Source: Candidatus Siliceabacter maunaloa
Lineage (GTDB): Bacteria > Actinomycetota > Thermoleophilia > Solirubrobacterales > Solirubrobacteraceae
Assembly (NCBI GenBank): GCA_024330185.1
Contig: JANDLV010000011.1
Coordinates: 19,081-83,080, forward strand
Length of the DNA: 64,000 bases
Direction of reading: 5' to 3'
The position numbers were made by a program, and so were the translations under genes. This document shows, piece after piece, positions 2,054-31,368 of this stretch. The notes beneath the pieces were generated by a model. That model was given only the letters and a program-made list of their open reading frames with translations, was not told where the DNA came from and did not search any database. Position 1 is the first letter of the stretch. Each line of letters starts with the position of its first letter.

Positions 2054-2902
2054 ATGACCATCGCCGACGCAGGAATCTTCACCATCGCCGACCGCACCGT
2101 CCATCGCCTCGGCTTCGGGGCGATGCGCATCACCGGGGAGGGCGTCTGGGGCCCACCCGCCGATCGCGAGCGGGCGCTCGCCGTGCTGCGTCGCTCGCGT
2201 GAGCTGGGCATCGACCTCATCGACACCGCCAACTCCTACGGGCCAGAGGTCAGCGAGGAGCTGATCGCGCAGGCGCTGCATCCGTACGACGAGAATCTGA
2301 CCATCGCCACCAAGGCCGGCCTCACCCGCTCGGGACCCGGCGGGTGGCACGCCGACTGCCGGCCCGAGTCGCTCAAGCACGAGTGCGAGGGCTCGCTGAA
2401 GCGCCTCCAGGTCGACAGCATCGACCTCTTCCAGCTCCACACCGTCGATCGCAAGGTTCCCTACGAGGAGTCGGTCGGCGCCCTCAAGGAGCTCCAGGAC
2501 GAGGGCAAGATCCGCCACATCGGCGTCTCCAACGTCTCCGTGGAGCAGTTGGAGCAGGCCCGCGGGATCGTCGAGGTCCACACCGTCCAGAACCGCTTCA
2601 ACCTCACCGACCGTGCTCACGAGGACGTCCTGGACCACTGCGAGCGCGAGGGGATCGGCTTCATCCCCTACTTCCCGCTGGCCGCCGGCGACCTCGCCAG
2701 CCCCGGCGGGCCCGTCGCCGAGGCGGCAAAGCGCCACGACGCCACACCGGGCCAGGTCGCCCTGGCCTGGCTGCTGGCGCGCAGCGACGTGATGCTGCCC
2801 ATCCCCGGCACCGGCTCGCCCGAGCACCTCGAGGAGAACGCCGGCGCCGGCGGACTGCGCCTGGAGGACGACGAGCTCAGGCGGCTCGAGCAGGCTGCCT
2901 GA
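2054..2902 (+). CDS. aldo/keto reductase family oxidoreductase
   Basis: 282 aa with [22 protein letters not shown] and IRHIGVSN motifs typical of AKRs. Confidence 0.85.
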
Positions 2903-5012: not shown

Positions 5013-5249
5013 GGTGCGCGGCACTGTAACGGAGTCCAGATTCCGGTTGAGTGCGGTTACCCACACAATCTCGCCCGACGTAGGCCGCGGCGCGGCCGTC
5101 CACGGGCCGGCGGCCCTCGAGCAGGGGCACGTCGCCCGCCCGCGACGACGACATGGGGCCGGTGCGCGCCGCGCACGACGCGCGCCAGGGCGGCCTGCTC
5201 ACCGGCCGGGGCCCACGAGGGCCCGCGACGAGGGTCCGCGCCCTAACTC

Positions 5250-5397: not shown

Positions 5398-8300
5398 ATG
5401 GCGCAGTTTCTGACCACTGACCCGTCCGACCCGTCGTCCGCGCAGCAGCCGGTGCCCGAGCTGCGCAGACGGACCGTGTCGCTGTCGGCCCCGGGAGCGG
5501 CCGCGCTCGATGCCGCCGCACAGCGCTTCGCGACGCGGCCGGCGTGCATCGTGGCGGCAGCGGTCGCCGTGTACGTGTCGCGCATCGCCGGTCTGACGGA
5601 CGTCGCACTCGGGCTGGCCGACGACGCAGGCGACGGGGTCCGGACGCTGCGGGTCACGGTCCGTCCGCAAACGACCGTGGACGAGCTTATCGCGGCGGTC
5701 GCGCGCGCGGCCGCGGACCCCAACGCGCGCGCAGGCGAGGTCGCGGGGCCGATCGTAGCGCTCGTCCTGGCGGACGACAAGCCGCGCTTCGGCCACCACA
5801 CCGCCGCGGTCGGCGACCCGCCGACGGGTCCGCTCGACGACCTGTCGGTCGCCGTCCGCGCGGGCCGCTTGCCCGCCGCTGCGACGCTCGAGCTGTGCGC
5901 GGACGCTGAGGTCGTCGGCGCGGACGAGCTCGCCGACCACGAGCGGCGCCTGCTCGGCGTGCTGGACGCCGTCACCGGCACGGGCGGCATAGTCGTCGGT
6001 TCGATCGAGCTGCTCTCGCCGGACGAGCGGCGCACCGTGAGGCAGCTGTCGGGGCCGCCGCAGCGCGCCGTCGACGAGCTCACGTGGACCGCCGCGTTCG
6101 AACGCCGGGCCGCGCTCGATCCCGAGGCCGTCGCCGTGGTCTGCGAGGACGTCGAGCTGACCTACGGGCAGCTCGCCGAGCACGCCCGCGGGCTGGCACG
6201 CACGCTGCTCGCACGTGGCGTGGGTCACGAGGACGTCGTGGCGGTCGCGGTGCCGCGATCGGTCGAGATGGTCGTGGCGCTGCTGGGCGTGATGCAGGCG
6301 GGAGCCGCCTACCTGCCGCTCGACCTCGACCACCCGCCCGACCGCGTCGCCTTCATGCTGCGCGACTCCGGCGCGCGCATCGTCGTGACCGTCTCCGAGC
6401 TCGCCGGCGACCTGCCGGCGGTCGACGGGCTGCAGGCGCTGCTGCTCGACGATCTGCCGGAGGGCGACGAGAACCTCGACCTTCCCGGTCCACTCGTTCT
6501 CGAGCAGGCGGCCTACGTCATCTACACGTCCGGGTCGACCGGCCGCCCGAAGGGCGTCGTCGTGTCGCACGAGGGCATCGGCAGCCTGATCGCGACGGCC
6601 ATCGATCGCCTCGGCGTCGACGCCCGCAGCCGCGTGGCGCAGTTCGCCTCGATCGGCTTCGACGTCGCCGTCTGGGACCTGTGCATGACGCTCGGCGTGG
6701 GCGGCCGCGCCGTCGTCGTTCCCGATTCGAGGCGGGTCGCGGGCGCGCCGCTGACGGACTACCTCGTCGAGCAGCGGGTCACCCACATGATCCTGCCGCC
6801 CTCGCTGGTCGCCGCGCTGCCGCCGGACTGCCCGCTGCCGCAGGGCGCGGTCCTCGTGGTGGGAACGGAGACCGTGCAGACCGAGCTCGTCACCCGCTGG
6901 TCGCAGCGCCTGCGGGTCTTCGCCGCCTACGGGCTGACGGAGGCGACGGTCAACTCGACGCTGTGGCCGGCGCAGCCCGGCTGGGACGAGCCGGTGCCGA
7001 TCGGCCGGCCCGACCCGAACACCCGCGCATACGTCCTTGATACGGCACTGCGTCCGACCGCGGTCGGGGTCACCGGCGAGCTGTACGTCGGCGGCCGCGG
7101 GCTGGCGCGCGGCTACCTCGGCCGGACGGGCCTGTCATCGCAGCGCTTCGTCGCCGATCCGCACGGCCCGCCGGGCAGCCGCATGTACCGCACCGGCGAT
7201 GGGGCTCGCTGGCGGGCGGACGGCTCGCTGGACTTCCTCGGCCGCACCGACGGGCAGGTCAAGATCCGCGGCCATCGCATCGAACCGGGCGAGATCGAGG
7301 CGGTCCTCATGCGCCACCCCGGCGTCGCGCAGGCCGCGGTGATCGCACGCGAGGACCCACCCGACAAGAAGCGGCTCATCGGCTACGTGGTCTGCGGCGG
7401 CGACCCGCTCGACGCGGCCGCGCTGCGCGCGCGCGTCGCCCACCAGCTGCCCGAGCACATGGTCCCGTCGGCAGTCGTCGTCCTCGACGGGCCGCTGCCG
7501 TTGACGCCCAACGGCAAGCTCGATCGTGCGGCGCTGCCGGCGCCGGATTTCACCGCCCTGACGGGCGGCGCCGAGCCGCGCACGCCGGCCGAGCGCACGC
7601 TCGCGGCGCTGTTCGCGCAGACGCTCGGGCTGCCGCGCGTCGGTGTCCACGACGACTTCTTCGCGCTCGGCGGCGACAGCATCGTCGCCATCGGACTCGT
7701 CAGCCGTGCACGTCAGGCCGGGCTGGTGCTGCGGCCGCGCGACGTCTTCGAGCGGCGCACGGTCGCCGCGCTGGCCGCGGTCGCCCAGCAGCGCCAGGCG
7801 CGGTCGGTGGATCCCCGCGACGGGCTCGGCCGGGTCGCGCCGACGCCGATAATGCACTGGCTGCGCGAGCTCGGCGGGGCGATCGGCGGCTTCTACCAGT
7901 CGCTCCTTCTGCAGGCCCCGGACGGCCTGGGTCGTGAGCGGCTGGAGGCGGTTCTCCAGGCACTGCTCGACCACCACGACCTGTTGCGCGCGCGCCTGCG
8001 CCGCGACGACGGCTGGTCGCTGGAGGTGCCGGCGCCCGGGACGGTGCGGGCCGCGGATCTCGTCGCGATCGTCCACGTCGGTGACGGAGGCCTGCGTGAC
8101 GCGATCGCCGAGCAGACCGAGAGGGCGGCGGCACGGCTGGATCCCGATGGCGGTCGCATGGTACAGGTCGTGTGGTTGCACGCCGGTCCGTCGCAGCCCG
8201 GCCGGGTGCTGTTGCTGGTCCACCACTCGGTCGTCGACGGCGTCTCGCTGCGGATCCTGATGACCGACCTCGCCGACGCGTGGGAGGCGATCGCCGCCGG

Positions 8301-9285
8301 CCGCGCTGCGTGCCCGAATGCCGTCGAAACGTCGTTTCGCCGTTGGTCGGAGCTGCTCTCGCAGACGGGGCGCAGCGGAGCGCGCGCCGGCGAGCGCGAG
8401 CTCTGGTTGCAGGCCGCCAACGCCTCCGACCCCTTGCTGGGCGCCCGCCGCCTGGACCCCGGGCGCGACGTCGTCGGCAGCTCGCGCACGCTGACGGTGT
8501 CCCTGCCCGCCGAGCAGACCGCCACGCTGCTGACCACCGTGCCGGCGCTCTACGGGGCGACCGTCAACGACGTGCTGCTGACCGCCCTGGCGGTCGCCGT
8601 CGGACGCTGGCGCGAGCAGCGCGGCCGCCGGACCACCCCCGAGGTCGTCGTCGATCTGGAGGGCCACGGCAGGGAGGACGTCTTCGACGACGTTGATCTC
8701 GCGCGGACCGTCGGCTGGTTCACGACGCTGTTCCCGGTTCGCCTGGACCCCGGTGCCGTCGACTGGGAGGCGTTGTGTCGCGGCAAGCCGGCCGCCGGGC
8801 ACGCGCTGCGGCGCGTCAAGGAGCAGCTGCGTTCGCTGCCCGACCGCGGCCTGGGCTACGGCATCCTGCGACACCTCGACCCCGGCGCGCGCGAGCAGCT
8901 CGCCGCCGCGCCCGCCCCACAGATGCTCTTCAACTACCTCGGCCGCTTCGCGGTGCAGGACGGCACGCCATGGACGCCCGCACCCGAGGCGCCCCCGCTC
9001 GGCGACGTGCGCGATCCGCAGATGCCGATGGGACACGTGCTCGACGTCGACGCCGTCGTGAGCGACGACGACGACGGGCCACGCCTCAGCACGGTCTTCG
9101 CCTGGCCGCGAGAGGTCTTCTCGGAGGCCGAGATCGCCGCTCTGGGCGAGCTGTGGCTCGAGGCGCTCGCCGGGCTGCACGCCCACGCCGGCGAGCCCGG
9201 CGCCGGCGGGCACACGCCGTCGGACTTCCCGCTCGTGACGCTCGATCAGGCCGAGCTCGACGGCTTCGCGGCGTCGGTCACCGAG
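5398..9285 (+). other. NRPS module 1: truncated C (aa ~25-215), A1, T1 (Ser761), E1 (His942-943)
   Basis: The N-terminus aligns only with the post-HHxxxDG half of C domains. LTYGQL is at aa 254, the A3 core at aa 377, NGKLDR at aa 705, FFALGGDS at aa 755-761, and HHSVVDGVS follows. Confidence 0.8.
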
Positions 9286-12200
9286 CTGGAGGACGTCCTG
9301 CCCGCGACAGCGCTGCAGGAGGGGTTCTTCTTCCATGCCCTGGCCGACGAGGACGCCCGGGACGTCTACCTCGTCCAGCAGCGCATCGATCTCGCGGGCC
9401 CGCTCGACGCCGCGGCGCTGCGGGCCGCGGTGCACGACCTGCTCGATCGCCACGCGCTGCTGCGCGCGGCATTTCGTCAGCGCGCCGACGCGCACGTCGT
9501 GCAGCTTATCGGGACGGGGATCGAGGTCCCGTGGCGCGAGGTCGATCTGCGCGGCGAGGATGAGGGCGAGCGCGCGGCTCGCGCCGAGGCGCTGGCGGTG
9601 CAGGAGGGCGCGCAGCGCTTCGACCTCGCTCGCCCGCCGCTGATCCGCTGCACGCTGATCGCGCTGGGCGACGAGCGCCATCGACTGCTCGTCACGCTGC
9701 ACCACATCCTCGCCGACGGCTGGTCGGAGGCGGTCATCGTGCGCGACCTGCTGGCGCTATACGCGCCCGACGGCGAGGCCCCGCCGCTGCCCGCCATCAC
9801 GCCGTACCGCCGCTACTTCGCCTGGCTCGCCGACCAAGACCGCGCCGCGGCCGCCGACGCCTGGCGGGCCGCGCTCGCCGACCTCGACGAGCCGACGCGC
9901 ATAGTGGCCGACGATGCGCCGGCGACCGCGCTGCGCTTCGAGGAGGTCCGCGCCGACCTGTCCGAGGAGCTGACCGCGGGGCTCGTCGCGAGCGTGCGCG
10001 AGCACGGCATCACGCTGAGCACGGCCGTTCAGGGCGCCTGGGGCCTGGCGCTGGGGCACCTCACGGGTCGCGAGGACGTCGTCTTCGGCACGACGGTCTC
10101 CGGCCGTCCGCCGGAGATCGAGGGCATCGAGGAGCTCGCGGGCCTGTTCATCAACACGCTGCCGGTCCGCGTGCGCTGGCGTGCCGGTCAGCCCCTCGGC
10201 GATGTCCTGGTCGAGCATCAGCTCGCGCAGGCCGACCTGCTCGATCACCAGCATCTCGGCCTGGCGGAGATCCAGCGGCTCACCGGGCGTGGCGAGTTGT
10301 TCGACACGCTGCTCGTCTTCGAGAACCAGCCGCCCAGCGACGCGGTCGGCCGCGTCGCGGGCGGCCTCGAGGTCACGGGGTTCCAGACGCTCGACTCCGA
10401 TCACTATCCGCTCGCCTTCGTCGCCACCCCGGGCTCGCGTCTGCGGCTGTTGCTCAAGCACGACGTCGATCGCTTCGCGCCCGAGGAGGCCCGCCGGATC
10501 CTTGCGCGGGTCGTCGCGCTGCTCGAGGCGGTCGTGGCCGATCCGGGACGGCCCGCCGGACGGGTCGACCTGCTGACCGAGGCGGAGCGCGAGCGCTTGC
10601 TGGAGGCCTGGACGGGCCCCAGCCTCGAGGTCGCCCAGCCGACGGTGCACGCGGCGTTCGCCGCGCAGGCGGCGCGGACGCCGGACGCAACGGCGGTCGT
10701 CGACGGCGACGAGGGGCTGACCTACGCGCAGCTCGACCGGCGCGCCGAGGCGCTTGCCGCGCGCCTGCGTGCAGCGGGCGCGGGCCCGGAGCAGGTCGTG
10801 GCGGTCGCGGTTGCGCGGTCGGCGTCGCTGATCGTCGCACTGCTCGGCGTGCTCAAGGCGGGAGCGGCGTACCTGCCCGTCGATCCGTCCCATCCGCCGG
10901 CGCGGCGAGCCTTGGTGGTGGCCGACTCCGGCGCCCGCCTGGTGGTGGCGATGACGGCGGACGCCCCGCAGTTGCCGGAGGTCGAGGGCGTGCGGGTGCT
11001 GGCACTCGACGCCGACGGCGGGCAGCCGGAGCATGTCGAGGGCCCGATTCCGACGGGCGCTGAGGCGCGTGCGCTGAACGCCGCCTACTGCATCCATACG
11101 TCGGGCTCCACGGGGCGGCCCAAGGGCGTCATCGTCAGCCATGGCGCGATCCTCAGCCAGCTCGCGTGGGTGCAGCGCGAGCTGCCCCTCGGCGCCGGCG
11201 ACCGCGTGCTCGCCAAGGCCCCGACGAGCGTCGACGTCAGCCTGCTGGAGACCCTGTGGCCGCTGTGCGCCGGCGCGGCCGTCGCCGTCGCGCCCGCCGA
11301 CGCGCACCACGACCCAGTCGCGTTGGCCGAGCTGGTTCGCGAGCACCGCGTCACGACGATGAGCTTCTCGCCGTCGATGCTCGACGCGTTCCTGCGCGCG
11401 ACCGAGGGTGCGGACGCCGTGGCGAGCCTGCGACACGCCTTCTGCGGCGGCGAGGCGCTGCACGCGGGGCTCGCCGATCGCTGGCGCGACCAGACCGGCG
11501 TCCCGCTGTACAACGCCTACGGACCGACCGAGGCCGCGATCCAGGTCACCTGCTGGGAGCACGCCGGCGGTTGCGCCGACCCCGTGCCGATCGGCCGCCC
11601 GGTGGCCAACACCGGCCTGCGGATCCTCGACGGCGCCCTGCGCCCGGTGTCGCCCGGAACCGCGGGCGAGCTGTACCTCGCCGGCACGCAGCTCGCGCGC
11701 GGCTACCACGGCCGGCCCGACCTGACCGCGCAACGCTTCGTCGCCGACCCCTTCGGCGTGGCCGGCGAGCGGATGTACCGCACGGGCGACGTCGCGCGCG
11801 ACCGCGGAGACGGGGCGATCGAGTACCTGGGGCGCACCGACGACCAGGTCAAGATCCGCGGCAACCGCGTCGAGCCCGGCGAGGTCGAGGCGCTGCTCGT
11901 GCGCGAGGACGGCGTCGCCCAGGCGGCGGCGATCGTGCGCTCCGACGGTCCCGGCGAGGCGCGGCTGGTCGCCTACGTCGCCGCCGTTCCCTGGCGCCGG
12001 CCGGACCCCGAGGAGCTGCGCGCCGCGCTGGCCACGGCGCTGCCCGAGGCGATGGTCCCGGCCGCCGTCGTCGTGCTCGACGAGCTGCCGCTGGCGCCGT
12101 CGGGAAAGGTCGACCGCACGGCGCTGCCGGCGCCGGTCCCCGGGCGCCGCGACCTGCGGGCACCGGCCGACGAGCGTGAGCGGCTGCTGTGCGAGATCTT

Positions 12201-15200
12201 CGCCGCCGTCCTGGGCCTCGACGAGGTCGGTCCCGACGAGGACTTCTTCGTGCTGGGCGGCGACAGCATCCTCTCGATCTCGGTCGCGATCGCCTCGCGC
12301 AAGGCCTGGCTGCAGCTCGCGCCGCGCGACGTGTTCCGCGAGCGCACCCCGGCCGCGCTGGCGCTGCACGCGGCAGCCGCGACACCGGCCGAGGCGCCCG
12401 ACCGCGGGCCGGTTGCCGGCGACGGCGTCGGTCACGTCGTGCCGCTGCCGGTCGTGCACCACCTGCGCGAGAGCGGTGGCCCGATCGGCCGCTTCAACCT
12501 GTCCCTGCTCGTCCAGGCCCCCGTGGGCGCGCGACTCGACGAGCTCGCCGCGGTGCTGCAGGCGGTGCTCGACCATCACGACGCCCTGCGCCTGCGCCTG
12601 AACCGGTTCGCCGGGGTGCTGTGGTCGCTGGAGACGCTCGCGGTCGGCGCGGTGCGGGCGGCCGACCTGCTGCGCCGGGTCCACGTCGACGACAGCGCGC
12701 CGGACGCGCTGCGCGCGGCGATCGCCGCGGAGTCCGACGCGGCGGTCGGCCGGCTGGACCCCGATGCGGGGCGGATCCTCGAGGCGGTGTGGTTCGACAC
12801 CGGCCCGCGGTCGCCCGGCCGGCTGCTGCTGGCGGCTCATCACCTGGCGGTCGACGGCGTGTCGTGGCGGATCCTGCTCGACGATCTCGCCGCCGCCTGG
12901 GACGCGGTGCACGCCGGCGAGCCCCCCGCGCTGGAGCCGGTCATGACGTCGCTGCGCAGGTTCGCGCGCATCGTCGACGAGCAGGCCGGGGCTCCGCAAC
13001 GCCTCGCCGAGCTCGAGCACTGGCGCGCGACGCTCGCACCCGGCGCCGACCTGCGGCCCGGCACGCGCGTCGACGCCACCGCCGCGGACGCCGTCGCGGA
13101 CACGATCGTCCTGTCCGCGCAGGAGACGGCCCCGCTGCTGACGACCGCCCCCGCCGCCGCGGGCGCCGACGTCACCGAGCTGCTGCTCGCGGCGCTGCGC
13201 ATGGCGGTCAGCCGCTGGCAGGCCGGACGCGGAAGCGATGGCGGGGCCGACATCCTCGTCCACCTCGAGCGCCACGGCCGCGAGCCGATCGCGGGGGCCG
13301 ACCTGTCGCGTACGGTGGGCTGGTTCACGACGATCCATCCGGTGCGTCTCGCGGCCGGCGGGGACGCGCTCGAGGTGCTCAGGAGCGTCAAGGAGCGCGT
13401 GCGCCGGGCGCCCGACGGCGGCATCGGCTACGGCATGCTGCGCTACGCCAACGCGCAGGTCGCCCCGTTGCTCGCGCAGGCCGAGCGCCCCCAGATCCTC
13501 TTCAACTACTACGGGCGCTTCCCCGCCGGCCCAGGCGCCGACTGGATGCCGGCGCAGGAGACCGGCGCGCTCACCGTCGCCCCCGACGGCGGGCTGGGCC
13601 TGCCCTACCTGCTGCAGCTCGACGTCGTGTGCGCCGACGAGCCGACCGGTCCGCGCCTGAGCGCGACCTGGACGCGCACGCAGGGCGGGCTGTCCGCGAG
13701 CGACGTGCAGGAGCTGCGCCAGGGCTGGCGCGACGCGCTGTGCGAGCTCGCGGTGCTCGCCGCCGACCGCGTCGCCGGCGGCTTCACGCCGGCGGACCTC
13801 ACCACCGTCTCGCTGACGCAGGAGCAGATCGACCGCGTGCAGCGCGCGAGCCCGTTGGCGATCGAGGACATCTGGCGGCTCTCGCCGCTGCAGGAGGGCC
13901 TGTACTTCCACGCGACGTTCGACGAGGGTGAGCTCGATGTCTACACGGCGCAAACCTCGCTGGACTTCACGGGCGGGATCGACGTCGAGCGCCTGCGCGC
14001 GGCGTGCGCGGCTCTGCTGGCGCGCAACGCGAGCCTGCGGGCGGGGTTCATCAGCGACGGCCTCATCCAGCCCGTCCAGTTCATCGCCCGCGAGCCGCAG
14101 ACGCCGATCGACGTCGTCGACCTCTCCGAGCCCGAGCCGGCGGCGCGGCGGGCGCGGCTGTCGGAGCTGATGTCCGCCGATCGCACGCGCCGCTTCCACC
14201 TCGCGCGCCCCCCGCTGCTGCGCATGCTCGTGGTGCGCCTCGGGGACGGTCGCGACCGGCTCGTGATCACCAACCACCTCGTGCTGTGGGACGGCTGGTC
14301 ACAGGGAACGTTCCGCGATCAGCTGCTCGCGCTCTACGAGCGCGCCGGCGACGACGGCGGGCTCGATCCGCCCGGCTCCTACCGCGACTACCTGGCGTGG
14401 CTGTCCGAGCAGGACGAGGCCCGTGCCGCAAAGGCCTGGCGCGAGGCGCTCGCGGGCATGGCGGAGCCGACGCTCGTCGGGCCGGTCGACCGCACCGCGC
14501 GGGCGATGATCCCCCAGAGTTGCCGCGTGACGCTGTCGCGCGAGCTCAGCGAGCGGCTGCGTCGCCAGGCTGGGCGCCACGGGGTGACGCTGAACACCGT
14601 GCTGACCGCGGCCTGGGGACTCGTGCTGTCCAGCGAGCTCGGGCGCGACGACGTCGTCTTCGGCGTGACCGTGACCGAGCGCCCCGCGGAGGTCTCCGGC
14701 GTCCAGGACACGATCGGGATGTTCATCAACACCGTGGCGGTGCGGGTGAGGCTCGACCCGCGCGAGCCGGTGGGCGAACTGCTGGGGCGCCTGCAGTCCG
14801 AGCGCGCGGCGCTGATGGAGCACGACCATCTGGGGCTCGGGGCCGTCCAGCGCGAGACCGGCCACGCGCAGCTGTTCGACACGCTGTACGTGCTGCAGAG
14901 CTTCGCCGGCGGCGACGACGAGGCGCTCGCCGAGGTGCGCGAGCGCCACGGCGTCGACGTCGTCGACTCCGTCGACGCGACCCACTATCCGCTGACCCTG
15001 GTCGTGACCCCGGGCTCGCGCCTGCGCGTGATGCTCGACCACCGGCAGGACCTCTTCGACCGCGAGGCCGCCGAGACGCTCGTGGCGCGCTTTGCGACCG
15101 TGCTCGAGCAGCTCGCCGGCGATCCGTGCGCGCTCGTCGGCAGTCTCGATCTGCTGGCGCCCGCCGAGCACCGGCGGCTGGAGGCGCGAACCGGCACGAC

Positions 15201-17070
15201 CGGTCACGAGCTCGGCCGGGACACCGTCGCCGACCTGCTCGACGCGCAGTCGCTGCGCACACCCGGCGCGACCGCGCTCGTGTGCGGTGACGAGTCGCTG
15301 ACCTCCGAGCAGCTGGCGGGGCGAATCCATCGCCTCACGCGCCTGCTGCTCACCCGTGGCGTGGGGCCCGAGGATGTCGTCGCGCTCGCGCTGCCGCGCT
15401 CGACGGACATGGTCGTCGCGCTGTTCGCCGTGCTCGCGACGGGCGCCGCCTACCTGCCGCTGGACCTCGACCACCCTGCCCAGCGACTCGAGCTCATGCT
15501 GCAGGACGCGGTGCCCGTCCTCCTGCTGTCCACCGCGAGCAGGGCTTCGTCGCTGCCGGCGGCCGGCGTCGAGCGCCTGCTGCTCGACGAGGCAGAGGTC
15601 CTCGGCGAGCTGGACGCGCTGCCCGGCGGGACGCTCGCGGACGCCGAGCGACCCGCGTTCGCGCGCTCGCTGGCCCATCGCCTCGGGCACGTGGCCTACG
15701 TGATCTACACCTCCGGCTCCACCGGGCGGCCGAAGGGCGTCGCGACGGCGCACCGCGGGCTGACGAACATGCAGCTCAACCACCGTCGCGAGATCTTCGC
15801 CCCGGTCGTCGCGGCCGCCGGCGGGCGGCGCCTGCGGATCGCACACACGGTCTCGTTCTCGTTCGACATGTCGTGGGAGGAGCTGCTGTGGCTCGTCGAG
15901 GGCCACGAGCTGCACGTCTGCGACGAAATCCTGCGCCGCGACGCCGAGGAGCTGGTCGCCTACTGCGCGCGCCACCGCATCGACGTCGTCAACGTCACGC
16001 CGACCTACGCGCACCACCTCATCCAGCAGGGCTTGCTCGAGGGCGAGGTCGATCGCGCGCACCCCCGTCCGGCCCTCGTCCTGCTCGGAGGCGAGGCGGT
16101 GCCCGACAGCGTCTGGTCGCAGCTGCGCGACACCGGCGGCACGCTGGGCTACAACCTCTACGGGCCGACGGAGTACACGATCAACGCGCTCGGCGCCGGG
16201 ACCGCCGACAGCGCCTCGCCGACGATCGGGCGGCCGATCCGCAACACGCGCGCCTACGTGCTCGACGGCTGCCTGCGGCGCGCGCCGATCGGCACCCCGG
16301 GCGAGCTGTACATCGCCGGGGTGGGGCTCGCGCGGGGCTACCACGGCAGCTTCGACCGCACGGCCGAGCGCTTCGTCGCCGACCCGCTCGCAACGGAGAC
16401 CGGCGCGCGGATGTACCGCACGGGCGACCTCGTGCGCCTGCGCGCCGACGGCACCATCGATTTCCTGGGCCGCACCGACGACCAGGTGAAGATCCGCGGC
16501 CATCGCGTCGAGCTGGGCGAGATCGAAGCCGTGCTCGACGCGCATCCGGACGTCGCGCACGCGGCCGTGATCGCCGACGGCGACGCCCCCGGATCGATCA
16601 AACGTCTCGTCGCGTACGTCGTCGCCCAAGCCGGCGCCTGGGACGACGACGAGGCCGCCACGGGCCGTCTGCGCGCCCACCTCAAGGATCGGCTGCCCGA
16701 CTACATGGTGCCGGCGGCGCTGATGGCGGTCGACGAGCTGCCGCTGACCGTCAACGGCAAGCTCGACATCGCCGCGCTCCCCGCCGCGACGATCGTCGCC
16801 GACAGCTCCGGGCGTGCCCCCACGACGCGCGAGGAGGAGGTGCTCAGCGAGCTGTTCACCGACGTGCTCGAGCTCGGCCACGTGGGACTCGACGACGGCT
16901 TCTTCGACTTCGGCGGACACTCGCTGCTGGCGATCCTGCTCGTCGGGCGCGCGCGCACCGCGCTGGATGTCGCGCTGACGGTGCGCGACCTCTTCGAGGC
17001 GCCGACGGTCGCGGGACTCGCCGCACGCGTCGCGGCGCGCAGGGCCGACGGCGGGGCGCAGAGCTCGTGA
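5398..17070 (+). CDS. non-ribosomal peptide synthetase, 3 modules: (C-terminal half of C)-A-T-E-C-A-T-E-C-A-T
   Basis: 3890-aa ORF. Three adenylation cores [10 protein letters not shown] start at nt 6526, 11098 and 15709. The PCP serines are GGDS at 7678, GGDS at 12265 and GGHS at 16921. Epimerase HHxxxDG motifs are at 8221 and 12838. Condensation motifs are HHILADG at 9700 and NHLVLWDG at 14272. The protein ends 48 aa after the last PCP serine. Confidence 0.97.
9286..13860 (+). other. NRPS module 2: C2 (DCL-like, His1435-1436), A2, T2 (Ser2290), E2 (His2481-2482)
   Basis: [51 protein letters not shown] and HHLAVDGVS appear in that order. Confidence 0.8.
13861..17067 (+). other. NRPS module 3: C3 (Asn2959-His2960), A3 (hOrn-type code), T3 (Ser3842)
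   Basis: [47 protein letters not shown] and FFDFGGHS are present. No TE, R or terminal C domain follows. Confidence 0.8.
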
Positions 17071-24946: not shown

Positions 24947-25174
24947 ATGACCAACCCGTTCGAGGATCCCGGTGGCACGTACGTCGTGCTCATCAACGAC
25001 GAGGGGCAGCACTCGCTGTGGCCGTCGTTCGTCGCGGTGCCGGCCGGCTGGACGGTGGCGCACGGGGAGAGCTCCCGCAGCGCATGCCTGGACTACGTCA
25101 ACGAGAACTGGACCGACCTGCGACCCGCCAGCCTCATCCGGAGCATGGACAGTGGCGCCCGTCATACCTCGTAA
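24947..25174 (+). CDS. mbtH: MbtH-like protein
   Basis: [35 protein letters not shown] carries the full MbtH signature. This is an internal ATG of ORF 24884..25174, preceded by GAAGAGGGGAGA. Confidence 0.9.
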
Positions 25175-26504
25175 GGCGCCCGCCGAGTGCGTGCACGACG
25201 TCCTGGGCATCGGCTTCGGTCCGTCGAACCTCGCGCTCGCGATCGCGATCGACGAGCACAACCGCTCGCGGCCGGGCGATGCCGCCCTCGACGCCGTGTT
25301 CATCGAGAAGCAGAGCCGATTTGGATGGCACCGCGGCATGCTCATCGACGACGCAACGATGCAGGTGTCGTTCCTTAAGGACCTCGTCACGATGCGCGAT
25401 CCGACGAGCGCCCACAGCTTTGTTGCCTACCTGCACGATCGCGGGCGCCTGGTCGACTTCATGAACCACAAGACGCTGTTCCCGCTGCGGATCGAGTTTC
25501 ACGACTACCTCGAGTGGTCCGCCGGGCGGATGTCGCATCTCGTCGAGTACGGCGGCGAGGTCGTCGACGTGCAGCCGGTGCGCGAGGACGAGGTTGTGTG
25601 GGCCTTCGACGTCACGGTCCGCGAGCCCGGGCGGGAGCCGATCGTGCGCCGGGCGCGCAACCTCGTCGTCGCCATCGGCCTGGAGCTGCGCATGCCGCCG
25701 GGGATCGAGCGGTCGGCGCGCATCTGGCACAGCCGCGACTTCCTGCGCCACGTCGAGGAGCTGGCGGACGGTCCGCGGCCCGGTCGCTTCGTCGTCATCG
25801 GCGCGGGCCAGAGCGCGGCCGAGGTCACGGGCTACCTGCATCGCGAATTCCCGGAGGCCGAGGTCTGCGCGGTCTTCTCGCGCTACGGCTACTCGCCGGC
25901 CGACGACAGCCCGTTCGCCAACCGCATCTTCGATCCCGAGGCGGTCGACCTGTACTACGACGCGCCGCCGGCCGCCAAGCGGATGCTGCTCGACTACCAC
26001 CGCAACACGAACTACTCGGTCGTCGATACGGAGCTGATCGAGGAGCTCTACCGTCGCTCGTACCAGGAGAAGGTGACCGGTCGCGAGCGCCTGCGGATCC
26101 TGCACACGTGCAAGGTGCTCGGGGTTCGCCACGGCGACGGCGCGGTGCTGACGACGCTCGAGTCGCTGGCGACCGGTGAGCGCAGCGAGCTCGAGTCCGA
26201 CGCGGTGATCTTCGCCACCGGCTACCGGCCGGTGTGCCCGCTGGGGGTCCTCGGCCAGGCACGATCGCTGTGCGCCACCGGCGACGGCGGGATGGTGTGC
26301 ATCCGGCGCGACTACCGAATCGCCACGACATGCGCGACGCGCGCCGCGATCTACCTGCAGGGCGCCACCGAGCACACGCACGGCATCGGCTCGACCCTGC
26401 TGTCGAACACCGCCGTGCGCGCTGGAGAGATCCTTGACTCGGTCCTGCGCCACGACCCGCAACGCAGCGACGGCTCTCTGGTTTACGCCGGCGAGCAGGC
26501 CTGA
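25152..26504 (+). CDS. L-ornithine/L-lysine N-hydroxylase (flavin-dependent N-monooxygenase)
   Basis: Frame of ORF 24972..26504. Motifs: GIGFGPSNL (FAD), [10 protein letters not shown] (NADPH) and [11 protein letters not shown]. The start is GTG 25152 (overlapping the mbtH stop) or GTG 25191. Confidence 0.9.
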
Positions 26505-26543
26505 GACGCGTTCACGCGACGCACGGTGCCGCAGCGACGCCTG

Positions 26544-28664
<2,121 letters not shown>

Positions 28665-28744
28665 TGTGTGACGTCGTCCGAAGGTCGCTGGTTCCGGCGA
28701 CCGGAGGACGAAGCTACCCATTCCCCGCGTGAAGGAGCATCAAC

Positions 28745-29167
28745 GTGTCCCATCATCGCGAGGCCGTCACCGCCCCGGGCGCCCCCGATGCCGTCGGCCC
28801 CTACGTGCACGCGGTCCGCGCAGGCGGCCTGCTGTTCTGCTCGGGCCAGGTCCCGCTGGACCCCGACACCGGCGAGCTGGTCGCCGGGCCGATCGGCGAG
28901 CAGGCGGCGCGCTGCCTGCGCAACCTTCAGGCGGTGTGTGAGGCTGCGGGCGTCGGACTGGCCGACGCGGTGCGCATCACCGTCTACCTGACCGACATGG
29001 GCGACTTCGCGGCGGTCAACGAGGTCTACGCCGGCTTCTTCACCGCGGCAAGCAGCGGTACAGGCGGTGACGACCCGCCGGCCCGCGTGGCCATCGGCGT
29101 CGCGGCGCTCCCGCTGGGCGCATCAGTGGAGATGGACGCGGTGGTGGCGCTACCCGAGGGCGCCTGA
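28745..29167 (+). CDS. ridA: RidA/YjgF family reactive-intermediate deaminase
   Basis: 140 aa with APDAVGPYVHAV, LLFCSGQVPLDP, and PARVAIGVAALPLGASVEMD. Confidence 0.85.
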   Translation: MSHHREAVTAPGAPDAVGPYVHAVRAGGLLFCSGQVPLDPDTGELVAGPIGEQAARCLRNLQAVCEAAGVGLADAVRITVYLTDMGDFAAVNEVYAGFFTAASSGTGGDDPPARVAIGVAALPLGASVEMDAVVALPEGA

Positions 29168-29238
29168 GAGCACGCGACCCTCTCAAGCCTCCTGCCCTGG
29201 TGTTATGAGAGAACACCAAAGCAGGACGGTTGCCGACC

Positions 29239-30711
29239 TCACCCCTCGCCGCGCAGGGCAGCGCGGCGGACCTTGCCGCTCGCGGTCTTGGGCAGGTCGT
29301 CGGCGAAGTCGATCACGCGGGGGTACTTGTAGGGCGCGGTGTGGGCCCTGACGTGGGCCTGCAGCTCGCGGGCCAGCGCGTCGGAGCGCTCATGGCCCTC
29401 ACGCAGGACGACGACCGCGCGCACTACCGCGCCGCGCTCCTCGTCGGGCGCGGCGACCACCGCGGCCTCCGCCACGGCGTAGTGGGCGACCAGGGCCGAC
29501 TCGACCTCGAAGGGGCCTATCCGGTAGCCGGAGGAGACGATCAAGTCGTCGTTGCGGCCCTCGAAGAACAGGAATCCGTCCTCGTCCTCATGCACGCGGT
29601 CGCCGGTTCGCCAGATCCCGGTGGGTGCCGCCTCGCCCACCGCCTCGGCCACCCCCTCGCCCACCCCCTCGGTCAAGTACTCCAGGAAGAACGTGGGGAA
29701 CGTCGTCGGGTCGCCGACCAGCTCGCCGTCGGCCACCCAGAGCGACACCCCCGGCAGCGGGCGGCCCATCGAGCCCGGGCGCGCCTCCTCGCCCACGAGG
29801 TTGCCGGTGAGCTGCCCGGTCTCGGTCTGGCCGTAGCCGTCGCGGATGCGCAAGCCGGTGGCGTCCTCCCAGGCGCGCAGCACCTCGGGGTTCAGCGCCT
29901 CCCCGGCGGCCACCAGCGAGCGTAGGCCCTCGACAGGGCCCAGCCGCGCCGCGCGCTTGGCGATGACCCGGTACTCCGTGGGCGCCATGCACAGCACGCC
30001 GACGCGCTCGCGAGCCAGGATCTCCAGCCGTTGCTGGGGGTCGAAGCGCTCGTCGTGCAACAGCGCCGCCGCGCCACGCAGCCACGGCGCGACGAAGACG
30101 TTGCGCGCCGACTTGGACCACCCCGACGCCGCGGTGCACCACACCAGCTCGCCCTCGCGCGCGCCGAGCCAGTGCTCGGCCTGCACGCGCTGGCCGGCCA
30201 GGTAGCGCTGGGCGTGCAGGACCGCCTTGGGCTGCCCCGCGGTCCCCGAGGTGAAGGTTATGAGGCACGGGTCCTGCGGCGCCAGGTCCACCGCGGGCGG
30301 TGGGTCGCCGGCGTAGAGCCCCTCGTCGGGCGTCGTCAGCACCAGCCCCTGGGGCGCCGAGGCCTCCAACTCGGCACGGTTGCGCTCGTCGGCCAGCACC
30401 ACCTTGGGCCGGGCGACCTCCAGGCGCAGCGCCAGGTCCTTGGCCCGAAGCTGCTCGGTGCAGGGCAGCACGACGGCCCCGATGCGAAAGCAGGCGACCA
30501 TCGCGCACACCCAGTCGGGCCGGTTGCCGATGAGGGTCATCACGGTGTCGCCCGGCCCGACGCCGCGCTGCACCAGCGTCCCGGCCAGGCGCGCCGACCG
30601 GTCGGCGACCTCCGCGAAGCTCCACTCCCGCCGCGTGCCGTCGCGCGCGAGCTCCACCAGCGCGAGCCGGTCGGGAGGGGCGGCGTCGACCACGTCGCGG
30701 GCGAAGTTCAT
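29239..30711 (-). CDS. AMP-forming acyl-CoA synthetase/ligase
   Basis: Homology starts at ATG 30711 (MNFARDVV) inside ORF 29239..31125. Motifs: FTSGTAGQPKAV, GYGQTE, WRTGD, PKTASGKVRR. Confidence 0.8.
   Translation of the reverse strand: MNFARDVVDAAPPDRLALVELARDGTRREWSFAEVADRSARLAGTLVQRGVGPGDTVMTLIGNRPDWVCAMVACFRIGAVVLPCTEQLRAKDLALRLEVARPKVVLADERNRAELEASAPQGLVLTTPDEGLYAGDPPPAVDLAPQDPCLITFTSGTAGQPKAVLHAQRYLAGQRVQAEHWLGAREGELVWCTAASGWSKSARNVFVAPWLRGAAALLHDERFDPQQRLEILARERVGVLCMAPTEYRVIAKRAARLGPVEGLRSLVAAGEALNPEVLRAWEDATGLRIRDGYGQTETGQLTGNLVGEEARPGSMGRPLPGVSLWVADGELVGDPTTFPTFFLEYLTEGVGEGVAEAVGEAAPTGIWRTGDRVHEDEDGFLFFEGRNDDLIVSSGYRIGPFEVESALVAHYAVAEAAVVAAPDEERGAVVRAVVVLREGHERSDALARELQAHVRAHTAPYKYPRVIDFADDLPKTASGKVRRAALRGEG
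29631..29678. repeat. imperfect 12-bp tandem repeat x4, in frame in the acyl-CoA synthetase
   Basis: The units are cctcgcccaccg, cctcggccaccc, cctcgcccaccc and cctcggtcaagt. They encode the low-complexity TEGVGEGVAEAVGEAA just before the WRTGD motif. Confidence 0.7.
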
Positions 30712-30753
30712 CGGCCGGCACGCTACCCGCCGCGGGCGCGGTAAGCTGTTGGT

Positions 30754-30987
30754 ATGCAATCGGAGCGTGTGACCGTCACCATGCCCGCCGACGTCGCCAA
30801 GGCTGCGCGAGAGCGGGTGGAAGCCGGGGAGAGCCGGTCGTTGAGCGCCTTCGTCGCCGAGGCCGTGGAGGAGAAGGCGAAGCGAGAGACGTTGCGTGAG
30901 GTTCTCGACGACATCCGGGGCGAGATCGGCCCCCCGGGTCCCGAGGCGGAGGCGTGGGCCGACCGCGTCCTCGGTCGCCTGCGCTGA
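30754..30987 (+). CDS. vapB: ribbon-helix-helix antitoxin (VapB/CopG-like)
   Basis: 77 aa. RVTVTMPADVAKAARERVEAGESRSLSAFV is an RHH pattern. It overlaps the downstream PIN gene. Confidence 0.7.
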   Translation: MQSERVTVTMPADVAKAARERVEAGESRSLSAFVAEAVEEKAKRETLREVLDDIRGEIGPPGPEAEAWADRVLGRLR

Positions 30988-31352
30988 TCCTCGACGCCGG
31001 TGCGCTGATCGCCTACGAGCGCGGCGACCAGGAGGTCGTGACGCTGCTCGAGGGATCAGAGCGTGAGGGCGTGAGCGTGACGATTCCGGCGGGCGTGCTC
31101 GCGCAGGCGTGGCGCGACGGCGCACGTCAGGCGCGCCTGGCCCGGCTCGTCGGCGCCGAGGATGTCATGGTTGTCCCGCTCGACGAGCCCGTCGCCAAGG
31201 CGGTCGGGAGCCTGTGCGCATCGACCGGTACCAGCGATCTCGTCGATGCCTCGGTCGTCATCGCCGCGCAGGCGACCGGCGGTCTAGTCCTCACCTCCGA
31301 CCCTGGCGACCTGCGCCGCCTCGACCCCTCGCTGCCGCTGGAGCGGGTCTGA
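30954..31352 (+). CDS. vapC: PIN-domain toxin VapC
   Basis: LILDAGALIAYERGD, DLVDASVVIAAQ and LVLTSDPGDL supply the acidic PIN residues. The start is uncertain (GTG 30954). Confidence 0.75.
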   Translation: MGRPRPRSPALILDAGALIAYERGDQEVVTLLEGSEREGVSVTIPAGVLAQAWRDGARQARLARLVGAEDVMVVPLDEPVAKAVGSLCASTGTSDLVDASVVIAAQATGGLVLTSDPGDLRRLDPSLPLERV

Positions 31353-31368
31353 CCATATCCTCGTCGCC

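What the first reader, a model, noticed from the sequence alone, without database searches (positions are those of the whole stretch)
29042..29071. The same repeat unit occurs once, inverted and in frame, inside the neighbouring ridA
On its coding strand yyaL reads acc gcg gca ggc agc ggt acg ggc ggc gac (TAAGSGTGGD) at the end of its array. ridA is divergently transcribed about 1 kb away. At 29042-29071 it reads acc gcg gca agc agc ggt aca ggc ggt gac (TAASSGTGGD). By hand alignment 27 of 30 nt are identical. In ridA the segment lengthens the loop between the YAGFF and PARV motifs by roughly 6-7 residues relative to the RidA proteins I know. So two unrelated adjacent genes on opposite strands carry the same approximately 30-nt in-frame insertion, and one copy has been amplified six-fold. 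This looks like copy-paste of a short coding-compatible element (template switching between inverted copies, gene conversion, or an undescribed mini-insertion) rather than independent slippage.
Basis: seen in the sequence. Interest (0 to 1): 0.65.

Follow-up and report, generated by a model that had tools for sequence, protein, structure and literature searches.

The report
One 24-base coding repeat shared by three genes
The same 24-base, 8-amino-acid module (TAA[S/G]SGTG) sits in frame in surface loops of three unrelated conserved genes (ridA, yyaL and a Crp-type regulator) in one group of uncultured soil actinobacteria, and its copy number varies at each site, so a tiny piece of coding DNA has been copied between genes and then expanded and contracted.

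Summary
ridA 29042-29071 matches the last unit plus flank of the yyaL array at 27 of 30 nt, on opposite strands about 1.1 kb apart. Shuffles give 0 expected matches.

The inserted unit is 24 nt, not 30. The trailing G-D/D-D codons are native flank.

Orthologues show both inserts are recent and unstable:
- ridA has 0, 0.5, 1, 2.5 or 3 units among contigs that are 98-99.6% identical.
- yyaL has 0, 1, 6 or 7 units. A sibling assembly identical to the window over 6.4 kb has 7.

A metagenome scan found a third, unlinked host, a Crp/Fnr regulator. It carries a unit 23/24 identical to the ridA unit, in the same frame, with 1-4 copies among relatives. Its distribution is the deepest, and a probable single organism has it while both ridA and yyaL sites are empty.

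Shared rare codons (GCA, ACA, GGT) rule out peptide convergence: P is about 1e-6 given the same peptide. The unit is at chance frequency elsewhere in the GTDB, JGI, viral and plasmid scans. No terminal repeats, target duplication or significant hairpin were found.

The two empty sites already share TTY-NNN-GACGMCCCG.

Best reading: the unit was copied between loci by microhomology-guided template switching or short-patch conversion, and slippage then changed the copy number. The mechanism is inferred, not shown. This is a new variant of dispersed coding minisatellites.

The parts
29042..29065 (+). Single 24-nt unit ACCGCGGCAAGCAGCGGTACAGGC (TAASSGTG) inserted in frame in ridA, between FF and the x-DDPPAR catalytic-Arg motif.
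   Evidence: There is an exact 8-aa gap against the nearest orthologues and against PDB 2dyy. It lies in the low-confidence loop of the AlphaFold model (pLDDT <50 at residues 105-110).
29066..29071 (+). GGT GAC: native flank of the ridA site. GAC is ancestral. The junction codon GGT is specific to the window lineage; relatives have CCC, TCC, ACC, ATC or ACG.
29036..29041 (+). TTC TTC: left flank of the ridA site. TTC is shared with the yyaL site as left microhomology.
27918..28061 (-). yyaL array of 6 x 24 nt, ACCGCGGCAGGCAGCGG[C/T]ACGGGC (TAAGSGTG). Three GGC-type units are followed by three GGT-type units on the coding strand.
   Evidence: A sibling assembly (L003) that is otherwise identical over 6.4 kb has 7 units.
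27912..27917 (-). GGC GAC: native right flank of the yyaL site (the ancestral GD of GGF-GD-APKFPP).
28062..28064 (-). TTC: native left flank of the yyaL site (the F of GGF).
28745..29167 (+). ridA CDS (140 aa, Rid family / PF01042), a host gene.
26544..28664 (-). yyaL CDS (706 aa, DUF255 thioredoxin-like domain plus six-hairpin domain), a host gene. The insert lies between the two domains, inside the conserved GGF-G-x-APKFP motif.

Best explanation
A 24-nt coding module, ACC GCG GCA [A/G]GC AGC GG[T/C] AC[A/G] GGC (TAA[S/G]SGTG), behaves as a small dispersed in-frame minisatellite in one Solirubrobacteraceae-like clade.

Proposed history:
1. It probably arose in the loop of a Crp/Fnr regulator (inferred).
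2. It was copied into ridA and into the divergently transcribed neighbour yyaL by a polymerase template switch, or a very short conversion patch, guided by a few bases of flank identity (inferred). The two empty sites already read TTY-NNN-GACGMCCCG, and the ridA T-allele and the crp flank share CACCG.
3. At each locus slipped-strand mispairing has added and removed whole units and 12-nt half units (shown by polymorphism).

All six frames of the unit are open. Only the Thr/Ala/Ser/Gly reading is seen, presumably because that floppy, polar peptide is tolerated in loops (inferred). No dedicated mobilising enzyme needs to be invoked.
For: Common DNA origin:
- 27/30 (22/24 within the unit) between ridA and yyaL, and 23/24 between ridA and crp.
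- Shared rare codons give P of about 1e-6 under peptide convergence.

Recent insertion:
- The insert is absent from L050 in both genes, from ridA P0009-P0025 and from yyaL P0122-P0128.

Slippage shown:
- ridA has 3 units (L001), 2 units plus a 12-nt duplication (L038), 0.5 (L051), and 0 (L054, L055) among contigs that are 98-99.6% identical.
- yyaL has 6 versus 7 units in assemblies otherwise identical over 6.4 kb.
- crp has 1, 2, 3 or 4 units.

Guiding flanks:
- The empty sites in L050 are TTC ACG GAC GAC CCG and TTT GGC GAC GCC CCG. That pattern is expected 0.01 times per 8 kb.
- The insert is flanked by ACCG...ACCG on the ridA T-allele.

crp is older:
- An expanded loop is present in all crp orthologues down to about 79% identity, with graded and diverged forms.
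- L056 (crp with units) and L050 (ridA and yyaL both empty) come from the same metagenome, 3300013024, as two of its largest contigs.

Not a common string or high-copy element:
-.

Loop location:
-.
Against: - No template-switch event was observed directly. The microhomologies are short (3-9 nt) and were identified after the fact.
- crp is at an unknown distance from ridA/yyaL and is not in the 64-kb window, so a long-range switch is needed for that step.
- The three genes could not be placed on one genome. The linkage rests on shared samples, GC content and parallel divergence.
- The ridA unit is 24/24 identical in three lineages that differ at about 25% of third codon positions, and the crp unit is identical across lineages 86-88% identical. 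The yyaL unit differs at 6/24 between the window and the L001 population. Simple one-off copying plus neutral drift does not predict this. It calls for re-copying, constraint on the DNA, or an active process.
- Four junction-codon alleles occur within one near-clonal population and are unexplained.
Confidence: 0.55

Rival explanations
1. The unit is a genuine mobile coding mini-element. It is inserted in frame into protein loops by a dedicated trans-acting activity, for example an IS200/IS605- or RAYT-like ssDNA transposase that recognises the ACCGC...GCGGT hairpin, or a reverse-transcriptase-assisted repair pathway that copies an RNA.
For: - The same 24-mer occurs in three unrelated genes, always in the same frame and sense.
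- The unit sequence is unusually conserved across diverged lineages.
- Presence/absence alleles occur at exactly the same position on different junction-codon backgrounds.
- The unit contains a 5-bp inverted repeat.
- ridA and yyaL inserts both follow TTC.
Against: - Only three loci were found in about 190 kb of clade DNA, including the whole 64-kb window.
- The unit is at chance level in GTDB representative genomes, JGI metagenomes, viral contigs and plasmids.
- The hairpin is no better than shuffled sequence (z -0.2 to -1.8).
- There is no target-site duplication or terminal inverted repeat, and the crp site lacks the TTC target.
- I noted no transposase or reverse-transcriptase gene next to the locus, but I scanned only three proteins against Pfam and relied on precomputed Pfam labels for the rest.
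Confidence: 0.1
2. RecA-dependent ectopic gene conversion between pre-existing similar loops. Each gene acquired a Gly/Ser/Thr-rich loop on its own, and the loops were later homogenised by homologous recombination among the three loci.
For: - The window yyaL unit is closer to the ridA unit (22/24) than to the orthologous yyaL unit of the L001 population (18/24).
- The window ridA flanks (GTC ... GGC TTC; GGT GAC) resemble its yyaL flanks more than other ridA alleles do.
Against: - Empty sites have no loop sequence to convert.
- The homology available is 24-37 nt at 86-92%, which is at or below the usual minimum for efficient RecA pairing (established knowledge).
- ridA keeps a diagnostic T and crp a diagnostic C at unit position 18 in every lineage. 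That argues against frequent homogenisation.
Confidence: 0.2
3. Convergence. Selection for the same flexible peptide, together with extreme GC codon bias, produced the same DNA independently, or the match is chance.
For: - The peptide is low-complexity T/A/S/G, which is typical linker composition in high-GC actinobacteria.
- Degenerate versions of the string occur sporadically in many phyla.
Against: - Zero matches in shuffles.
- Identical use of rare codons GCA, ACA and GGT, with P of about 1e-6 given the peptide.
- No TAA[GS]SGTG arrays among 1.84 billion representative proteins.
- Most of the sporadic hits examined lie in other frames or strands of unrelated genes.
Confidence: 0.03
4. Assembly artefact. 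Short-read metagenome assemblers mis-joined or mis-counted a repeat, creating the shared segment or the copy-number differences.
For: - The 144-168-nt yyaL array is near read and k-mer length.
- 6 versus 7 units in two assemblies of the same strain could be an assembler difference.
Against: - The inserts are in frame inside conserved genes in independent assemblies from NCBI, ENA, JGI and Logan and from different samples.
- The ridA and crp arrays (24-96 nt) are well within read length.
- Diverged single units (TAPNSGAG and others) cannot be produced by mis-assembly.
Confidence: 0.02

Closest known systems
Rickettsia palindromic elements (RPEs): selfish repeats inserted in frame into protein-coding genes. 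This description is from my own knowledge of Ogata et al. 2000. A paper search listed articles mentioning these elements (e.g. PMC1779305, PMC10969869), but I did not read them.
   Same: A repeated DNA element sits in frame inside unrelated conserved genes. It is tolerated because it encodes a surface-exposed peptide, and it is restricted to one clade.
   Different: RPEs are about 100-150 bp, clearly palindromic, present in tens of copies and not tandemly variable. Here the unit is 24 nt, has no significant palindrome, has three known loci, and each locus is a variable-number array.
[quoted passage not shown] 2010, PMC2996958)
   Same: A tandem coding repeat with variable copy number is dispersed among different ORFs and inferred to move at the DNA level.
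   Different: PARCELs are 25-residue (75-nt) amphipathic domains with dyad symmetry. They occur in ORFs of unknown function or surface proteins, are often linked to mobile elements and are spread by HGT across phyla. Here an 8-residue floppy loop module sits in cytoplasmic housekeeping proteins of one clade, with no linkage to a mobile element seen.
MIRU-type dispersed minisatellites (VNTR loci) of mycobacteria (own knowledge: Supply et al. 1997/2000)
   Same: This is also an actinobacterial group. One unit family is present at several dispersed loci, and copy number differs between close strains at each locus.
   Different: MIRUs are 40-100 bp, lie between genes of operons, and occupy about 40 loci. 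Here the unit is 24 nt and intragenic, is read in frame as part of conserved proteins, and is known at only 3 loci.
Template-switch (quasipalindrome / inverted-repeat) mutagenesis and short templated insertions (paper searches, titles and abstracts only: PMC5941160, PMC8604942, PMC7202029, PMC7954356)
   Same: A nearby inverted copy (about 1.1 kb away, opposite strand) could serve as an alternative template. Short flank identities occur at both junctions. The outcome is a multi-nucleotide, in-frame change.
   Different: Classical cases homogenise arms of an existing imperfect inverted repeat over tens of bases. Here a whole new 24-nt segment would be installed, and one donor or recipient (crp) is unlinked.
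Slipped-strand contingency loci / intragenic tandem repeats
   Same: Whole-unit gain and loss occurs between near-identical genomes. The unit length is a multiple of three, so the frame is kept.
   Different: Contingency repeats are usually 1-9 nt and switch surface or restriction genes on and off. Here the hosts are a deaminase, a thioredoxin-fold protein and a transcription factor, and the same unit is shared between loci.

Membership tests
Rid/YjgF/YER057c family (RidA; Pfam PF01042), host gene 1 | Significant match to the family profile over the full length, and similarity to solved RidA trimers including the conserved Arg of the PAR motif. | tested here: met
   PF01042 E = 4e-36, residues 13-135. 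52 PDB relatives, best 2dyy at E = 1.5e-32. PPAR is retained and the 8 inserted residues align to a gap.
YyaL/SSP411 (DUF255 thioredoxin-like plus six-hairpin domain), host gene 2 | N-terminal PF03190 domain and the C-terminal GlcNAc-2-epimerase-like region. | tested here: met
   PF03190 E = 1.6e-72. PF13899 also matches. PF07221 scores 23.3 bits, just under its 23.4 cut-off. Orthologues are named YyaL/SSP411.
Crp/Fnr transcription regulators, host gene 3 (L046 231..962 -) | cNMP-binding domain followed by a Crp-type helix-turn-helix. | tested here: met
   PF00027 E = 6e-25 and PF13545 E = 3e-14. 82 residues align to 68 profile positions of the HTH domain, consistent with the inserted loop.
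Variable-number tandem repeat (minisatellite) | Head-to-tail copies of one unit. | tested here: met
   TRF: period 24, 6.0 copies, 99% matches. ridA x3 in L001 and crp x4 in L048.
Variable-number tandem repeat (minisatellite) | Copy number differs between closely related genomes. | tested here: met
   ridA has 0 / 0.5 / 2.5 / 3 units at 98-99.6% nt identity. yyaL has 6 versus 7 units at 100% flank identity. crp has 1-4 units. Assembly error cannot be excluded for the longest array.
Dispersed repeat family (MIRU-, RPE- or REP-like) | The same unit is present at several unlinked loci of one genome. | tested here: inconclusive
   Three host genes were found. ridA and yyaL are adjacent. crp is on other contigs and could be tied to the same organisms only through shared samples, GC content and parallel divergence.
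Dispersed repeat family (MIRU-, RPE- or REP-like) | High copy number (tens to hundreds per genome). | tested here: not met
   No further copy with 4 or fewer mismatches in about 190 kb of clade DNA, including the 64-kb window. Whole genomes were not available.
Dispersed repeat family (RPE- or REP-like) | Palindromic unit able to form a stable hairpin. | tested here: not met
   A 5-bp stem gives -4.6 kcal/mol, z = -0.35 to -1.1 against shuffles. Arrays give z = -0.85 and -1.8.
IS / MITE-type transposable element | Terminal inverted repeats and a target-site duplication flanking the insert. | tested here: not met
   Filled versus empty sites were read directly. There is no duplication beyond 1-4 nt of microhomology, no terminal inverted repeats, and the unit is too short to carry them.
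Template-switch / microhomology-templated insertion | A donor copy exists, and short identities between donor and recipient occur at both junctions. | tested here: met
   An inverted donor lies about 1.1 kb away. The empty sites share TTY-NNN-GACGMCCCG, expected 0.01 times per 8 kb. CACCG occurs at both junctions for the crp to ridA(T-allele) step. The identities were recognised after the fact.
Template-switch / microhomology-templated insertion | Direct observation of the event, for example de novo in culture, or a polarity tied to replication direction. | not testable with these tools
   The organisms are uncultured, and neither the origin nor the replication direction is known.

The most novel reading that the evidence does not exclude
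The 24-nt unit is an active, sequence-specific coding module. Under this reading a lineage-restricted mechanism repeatedly installs and re-copies the same 8-residue loop cassette in frame into conserved cytoplasmic proteins and keeps its DNA sequence homogeneous. That would create hypervariable loops, including one next to the RidA catalytic Arg and one in the hinge of a Crp regulator.

A corollary: the ridA and yyaL copies are inverted and in the same frame, so recombination between them would invert the 1.1-kb promoter-proximal segment and swap the N-terminal parts of the two proteins in frame.
Probability: 0.1. Interest if true: 0.85.

Novelty: new variant of a known kind. Interest (0 to 1): 0.62.

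Why it matters
If the reading is right, this is a clean natural example of how a very short piece of coding DNA spreads between unrelated bacterial genes without a transposon and then becomes a hypervariable protein loop.

- It bears on the origin of shared low-complexity inserts in proteins. These are usually put down to convergence or slippage alone.
- It bears on template switching as a source of protein innovation in bacteria.
- It offers strain-level markers (VNTRs) for an abundant but uncultured soil actinobacterial group.
- The inserts sit 4 residues before the catalytic Arg motif of RidA and in the domain hinge of a Crp regulator, so copy number could modulate activity. This is testable by expressing the natural 0-, 1- and 3-unit alleles.

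Tried and rejected
- **Common-linker hypothesis.** I scanned GTDB species-representative genomes with ACCGCSSCARRCAGCGGYRCRGGY. There were 15 single hits across unrelated phyla, with no arrays and none in ridA or yyaL. Rejected.
- **Metagenome scan.** 28 loci were hit. Only L038 (ridA) and L046/L047 (crp) are real in-frame copies. L028 is out of frame in a small Zn-ribbon ORF after lexA. Most of the other hits I examined lie in other frames or strands of unrelated genes; L042 may be in frame and several hits were not examined.
- **Protein-level search.** phmmer with (TAAGSGTG)x6 against 1.84 billion representatives returned only generic VAVGSGVG-type repeats and no TAA[GS]SGTG. This search cannot see inserts hidden inside 50%-identity clusters.
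- **Viral contigs and plasmids.** No match.
- **Hairpin or REP-like structure.** Not better than shuffles.
- **Transposon footprint or target duplication.** None seen.
- **Finding the crp gene of the window's own genome.** Lookups via cluster members and encoding contigs returned other assemblies only: GCA_030154825.1, GCA_030858005.1 and GCA_020063745.1. No direct same-genome link was obtained.
- **A donor for the diverged yyaL unit of the L001 population.** I compared it with the TAPGSGTG unit of crp in L056. It differs at 7/24, so there is no support.
- **Literature.** Nothing was found on Solirubrobacter tandem repeats or on a shared in-frame repeat of this kind.

Full report
**1. The observation**

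- ridA (28745..29167, +) has ACC GCG GCA AGC AGC GGT ACA GGC GGT GAC at 29042-29071.
- The coding (minus) strand of yyaL (26544..28664) ends its array with ACC GCG GCA GGC AGC GGT ACG GGC GGC GAC at 27941-27912.
- Allowing three mismatches, that 30-mer has exactly these two places in 64 kb, and none in 100 dinucleotide-preserving shuffles.
- The 24-mer alone finds the six yyaL units plus ridA, again with 0 expected.
- TRF reports a 24-nt x 6.0 array, 99% matches, score 269. The next best array in the window scores 130.
- The inverted-repeat finder extends the pair to 37 nt at 86% complementarity with 1098 nt between the arms. A second register of 34 nt includes the upstream GGCTTC.
- In a self-BLAST of the real sequence, matches this good otherwise appear to come from repeated (probably paralogous) coding segments and tandem arrays; I did not inspect most of them.

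**2. What the inserted piece is**

Both genes are ordinary members of their families.

- ridA matches PF01042 at E = 4e-36 and has 52 solved relatives.
- yyaL matches PF03190 at E = 1.6e-72.

Nearest orthologues define the empty sites.

- RidA proteins of 130 aa read ...AFF-[T/P/S/A]-DDPPAR.
- YyaL proteins of 658-663 aa read ...GGF-GD-APKFPP.
- On contig L050 both sites are empty at the DNA level: ridA is TTC TTC ACG GAC GAC and yyaL is GGC TTT GGC GAC GCC.

The insert is therefore exactly 24 nt (8 aa) per unit. The alignment with PDB 2dyy shows a clean 8-residue gap. An AlphaFold model puts the insert in the only low-confidence stretch (pLDDT <50 at residues 105-110), between the long helix and the strand that carries the PPAR arginine motif.

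**3. Both inserts are recent and unstable**

ridA:
- Among RidA proteins 84-93% identical to the window protein, the site holds three units (P0003), two (P0005), one (P0001, P0002, P0004), one diverged unit (P0006, P0008), four residues (P0007), two residues (P0016) or nothing.
- Read as DNA, five contigs that are 98-99.6% identical in ridA carry five different alleles. They are 3 units (L001), 2 units plus a 12-nt internal duplication (L038), a 12-nt half unit (L051), and two empty alleles with different junction codons (L054 CCC, L055 TCC).

yyaL:
- yyaL has no unit in P0122-P0128 and L050.
- It has one diverged unit (ACC GCC CCA AAC AGC GGT GCG GGT, TAPNSGAG) in every contig of the L001 population.
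- It has six units in the window.
- The NCBI contig L003 (GCA_973374305.1) is identical to window 25769-32167 with zero mismatches, except for one 24-nt gap. Its array has seven units.

The window is thus a sibling assembly of the same strain. The yyaL copy number is either truly polymorphic or not reliably assembled. I cannot tell which.

**4. A third host gene**

A scan of JGI metagenome contigs with the synonymous-degenerate unit returned 28 loci.

- One is ridA (L038).
- Two (L046, L047) carry ACC GCG GCA AGC AGC GGC ACA GGC, which is 23/24 identical to the ridA unit. It is in frame inside a 242-aa Crp/Fnr regulator, in the loop between the dimerisation helix and the helix-turn-helix...EQARKEG-TAASSGTG-TADGEKV....
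- BLAST against the window extends the match to 35 nt at 94% against the yyaL array, because the crp unit is followed by ACC GCG G.

Homologues of this regulator again vary at that point:
- one unit (P0241-P0245);
- three units (P0246);
- four units (P0247 / L048);
- two G-type units with half units on each side (P0251 / L056);
- two units (P0254);
- single diverged units (P0248, P0250, P0253, P0255, P0256);
- shorter forms (P0257, P0258);
- the plain loop EGA-x-DGEVL in orthologues at 77% identity or less.

The same module, read in the same one of its six open frames, is therefore a variable-number repeat in three unrelated conserved cytoplasmic proteins.

**5. Copy, not convergence or chance**

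- In genes of this window, GCA is 4.9% of Ala codons, ACA is 3.0% of Thr codons and GGT is 6.8% of Gly codons. All three occur at the same positions of the unit. Given the same peptide, the probability of the same codons is about 1e-6.
- The degenerate unit is at background level in 596 Gb of species-representative genomes: 15 single hits in many phyla, no arrays.
- It is absent from viral contigs and plasmids.
- The other metagenome hits I examined lie mostly in other frames or strands of unrelated genes; one (L042) may be in frame and several were not examined.
- A phmmer search with (TAAGSGTG)x6 against 1.84 billion representative proteins found only generic eight-residue Gly/Val repeats and no TAA[GS]SGTG.

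**6. Order of events (inferred)**

- The crp loop has the deepest and most graded distribution.
- L056 (crp with units) and L050 (ridA and yyaL both empty) are two of the largest contigs of the same metagenome (3300013024), with matching GC content. They probably come from one organism. This suggests crp is the oldest host.
- In the L001 population the yyaL unit is fixed and diverged, while ridA is polymorphic with pristine units.
- In the window lineage the yyaL units are only 2/24 from the ridA unit but 6/24 from the orthologous yyaL unit.
- ridA keeps a diagnostic T and crp a diagnostic C at unit position 18 in every lineage examined.
- The ridA unit is 24/24 identical across three lineages that differ at about 25% of third codon positions.

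I cannot reconcile all of this with one insertion per gene followed by neutral drift. Either the window's yyaL array was re-templated recently, or the unit DNA is constrained, or copying is recurrent.

**7. Mechanism**

Shown:
- Whole-unit and half-unit gain and loss occurs at all three loci (slippage-type behaviour).

Not found:
- There are no terminal inverted repeats and no target-site duplication.
- There is no hairpin better than shuffled sequence.
- There is no further copy in about 190 kb of clade DNA.
- I noted no transposase or reverse-transcriptase gene next to the locus. I scanned only three proteins against Pfam myself and relied on precomputed Pfam labels for the neighbours.

Suggestive:
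- The two empty sites in L050 already read TTC ACG GAC GAC CCG and TTT GGC GAC GCC CCG. That shared pattern is expected 0.01 times per 8 kb. A strand copying one site could therefore re-anneal at the other.
- They lie about 1 kb apart in inverted orientation, which is the geometry of intramolecular template switching.
- For the ridA T-allele, the insert is bounded by (C)ACCG on both sides. The crp unit is bounded by GGCACCGCGG on both sides.

My best explanation (confidence 0.55) has three parts:
1. Microhomology-guided template switching or short-patch conversion moved one period of an existing array between loci.
2. Slippage then changed the copy number.
3. Selection kept only the harmless Thr/Ala/Ser/Gly frame.

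Rivals:
- RecA-type ectopic conversion (0.2).
- A dedicated mobile coding element (0.1).
- Convergence (0.03).
- Assembly artefact (0.02).

**8. Comparison with known systems**

- It works most like a dispersed minisatellite (MIRU-like) that happens to be intragenic.
- Like Rickettsia palindromic elements and PARCELs (PMC2996958), it is repeat DNA tolerated in frame inside genes.
- It fails the defining tests for those families on size, palindromy, copy number and mobile-element association.
- It also fails the tests for IS/MITE elements (see the membership table).
- The proposed copying step belongs with template-switch mutagenesis, as described in the titles and abstracts of PMC5941160, PMC8604942 and PMC7954356.
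- I found no paper describing this situation.

I rate it a new variant of a known kind.

**9. Caveats**

- All sequences are metagenome assemblies.
- The three genes were not placed on one closed genome.
- Microhomologies were recognised after the fact.
- Copy numbers of the longest array may be assembler-dependent.
- Whole genomes could not be scanned, so the true number of host loci is unknown.

Noticed in passing
window 5075-5240 versus 26610-26780: A stretch of about 170 nt lies in the gap between an MMPL transporter gene (2877..5066 -) and a giant NRPS gene (5398..17070 +). It is a direct copy of the 3' end of yyaL (HSPs 56/59 and 44/48; the 281-column alignment averages 80%). In relatives (L050, L002) yyaL is followed directly by SRPBCC/cyclase and MMPL genes. 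The NRPS/siderophore block of about 21.5 kb (through the Lys/Orn N-monooxygenase at 24972..26504) therefore looks like an island inserted next to yyaL and flanked by direct repeats of its 3' end.
   Followed up: partly
window 29631-29671 (acyl-CoA synthetase gene, about 29239..30720 -): A second in-frame array, 12 nt x 3.4, is specific to the window lineage. The window reads EYL-TEGVGEGVAEAVGE-AAPTG, against GYVGEAPPAG in L001/L038/L052/L054 and EYLGAEAPTG in L050. It is an amplification of the native GTG GGC GAG GCG and is unrelated to the 24-nt unit. It shows that tandem amplification is active in this lineage.
   Followed up: partly
L003 (GCA_973374305.1, CCXAPD010000047.1) versus window 25769-32167: The public contig carrying the same genes is identical to the window over 6.4 kb with 0 mismatches. 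The only difference is that its yyaL array has 7 units (4 GGC-type plus 3 GGT-type) instead of 6 (3 plus 3). The window therefore comes from a sibling assembly of the same strain.
   Followed up: yes
ridA junction codon, window 29066-29068 and the same position in L001, L038, L051, L052, L054, L055: The codon just after the insertion point has four alleles (CCC, TCC, ACC, ATC) within a population that is 98-99.6% identical. It is GGT in the window and ACG in L050. This is a local mutation hot spot or a scar of repeated insertion and deletion.
   Followed up: partly
window 30754..30987 and 30954..31352 (+): A small antitoxin-like ORF overlaps a PIN-domain (VapC-like) gene between the acyl-CoA synthetase and acyl-CoA dehydrogenase genes. 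L050 has a formate/nitrite transporter at the corresponding place.
   Followed up: no
L009 (Sphingomonas MAG), minus-strand offset 4707 (locus + strand 3271-3294): An unrelated genome has ACCGCCGCAAGCAGCGGTACGGGC followed by a partial second copy (the frame reads TAASSGTGTAASS, then a stop). It lies in an open frame of only 82 aa. It is probably chance or another reading frame, and I did not examine it further.
   Followed up: no
L028 6028-6051 (-), downstream of lexA: A 22/24 match to the ridA unit lies out of frame inside a 90-aa Zn-ribbon-like ORF (5985..6257 -) in a GC-rich actinobacterial contig from the same sample series. I judged it compatible with chance given the degenerate scan.
   Followed up: partly
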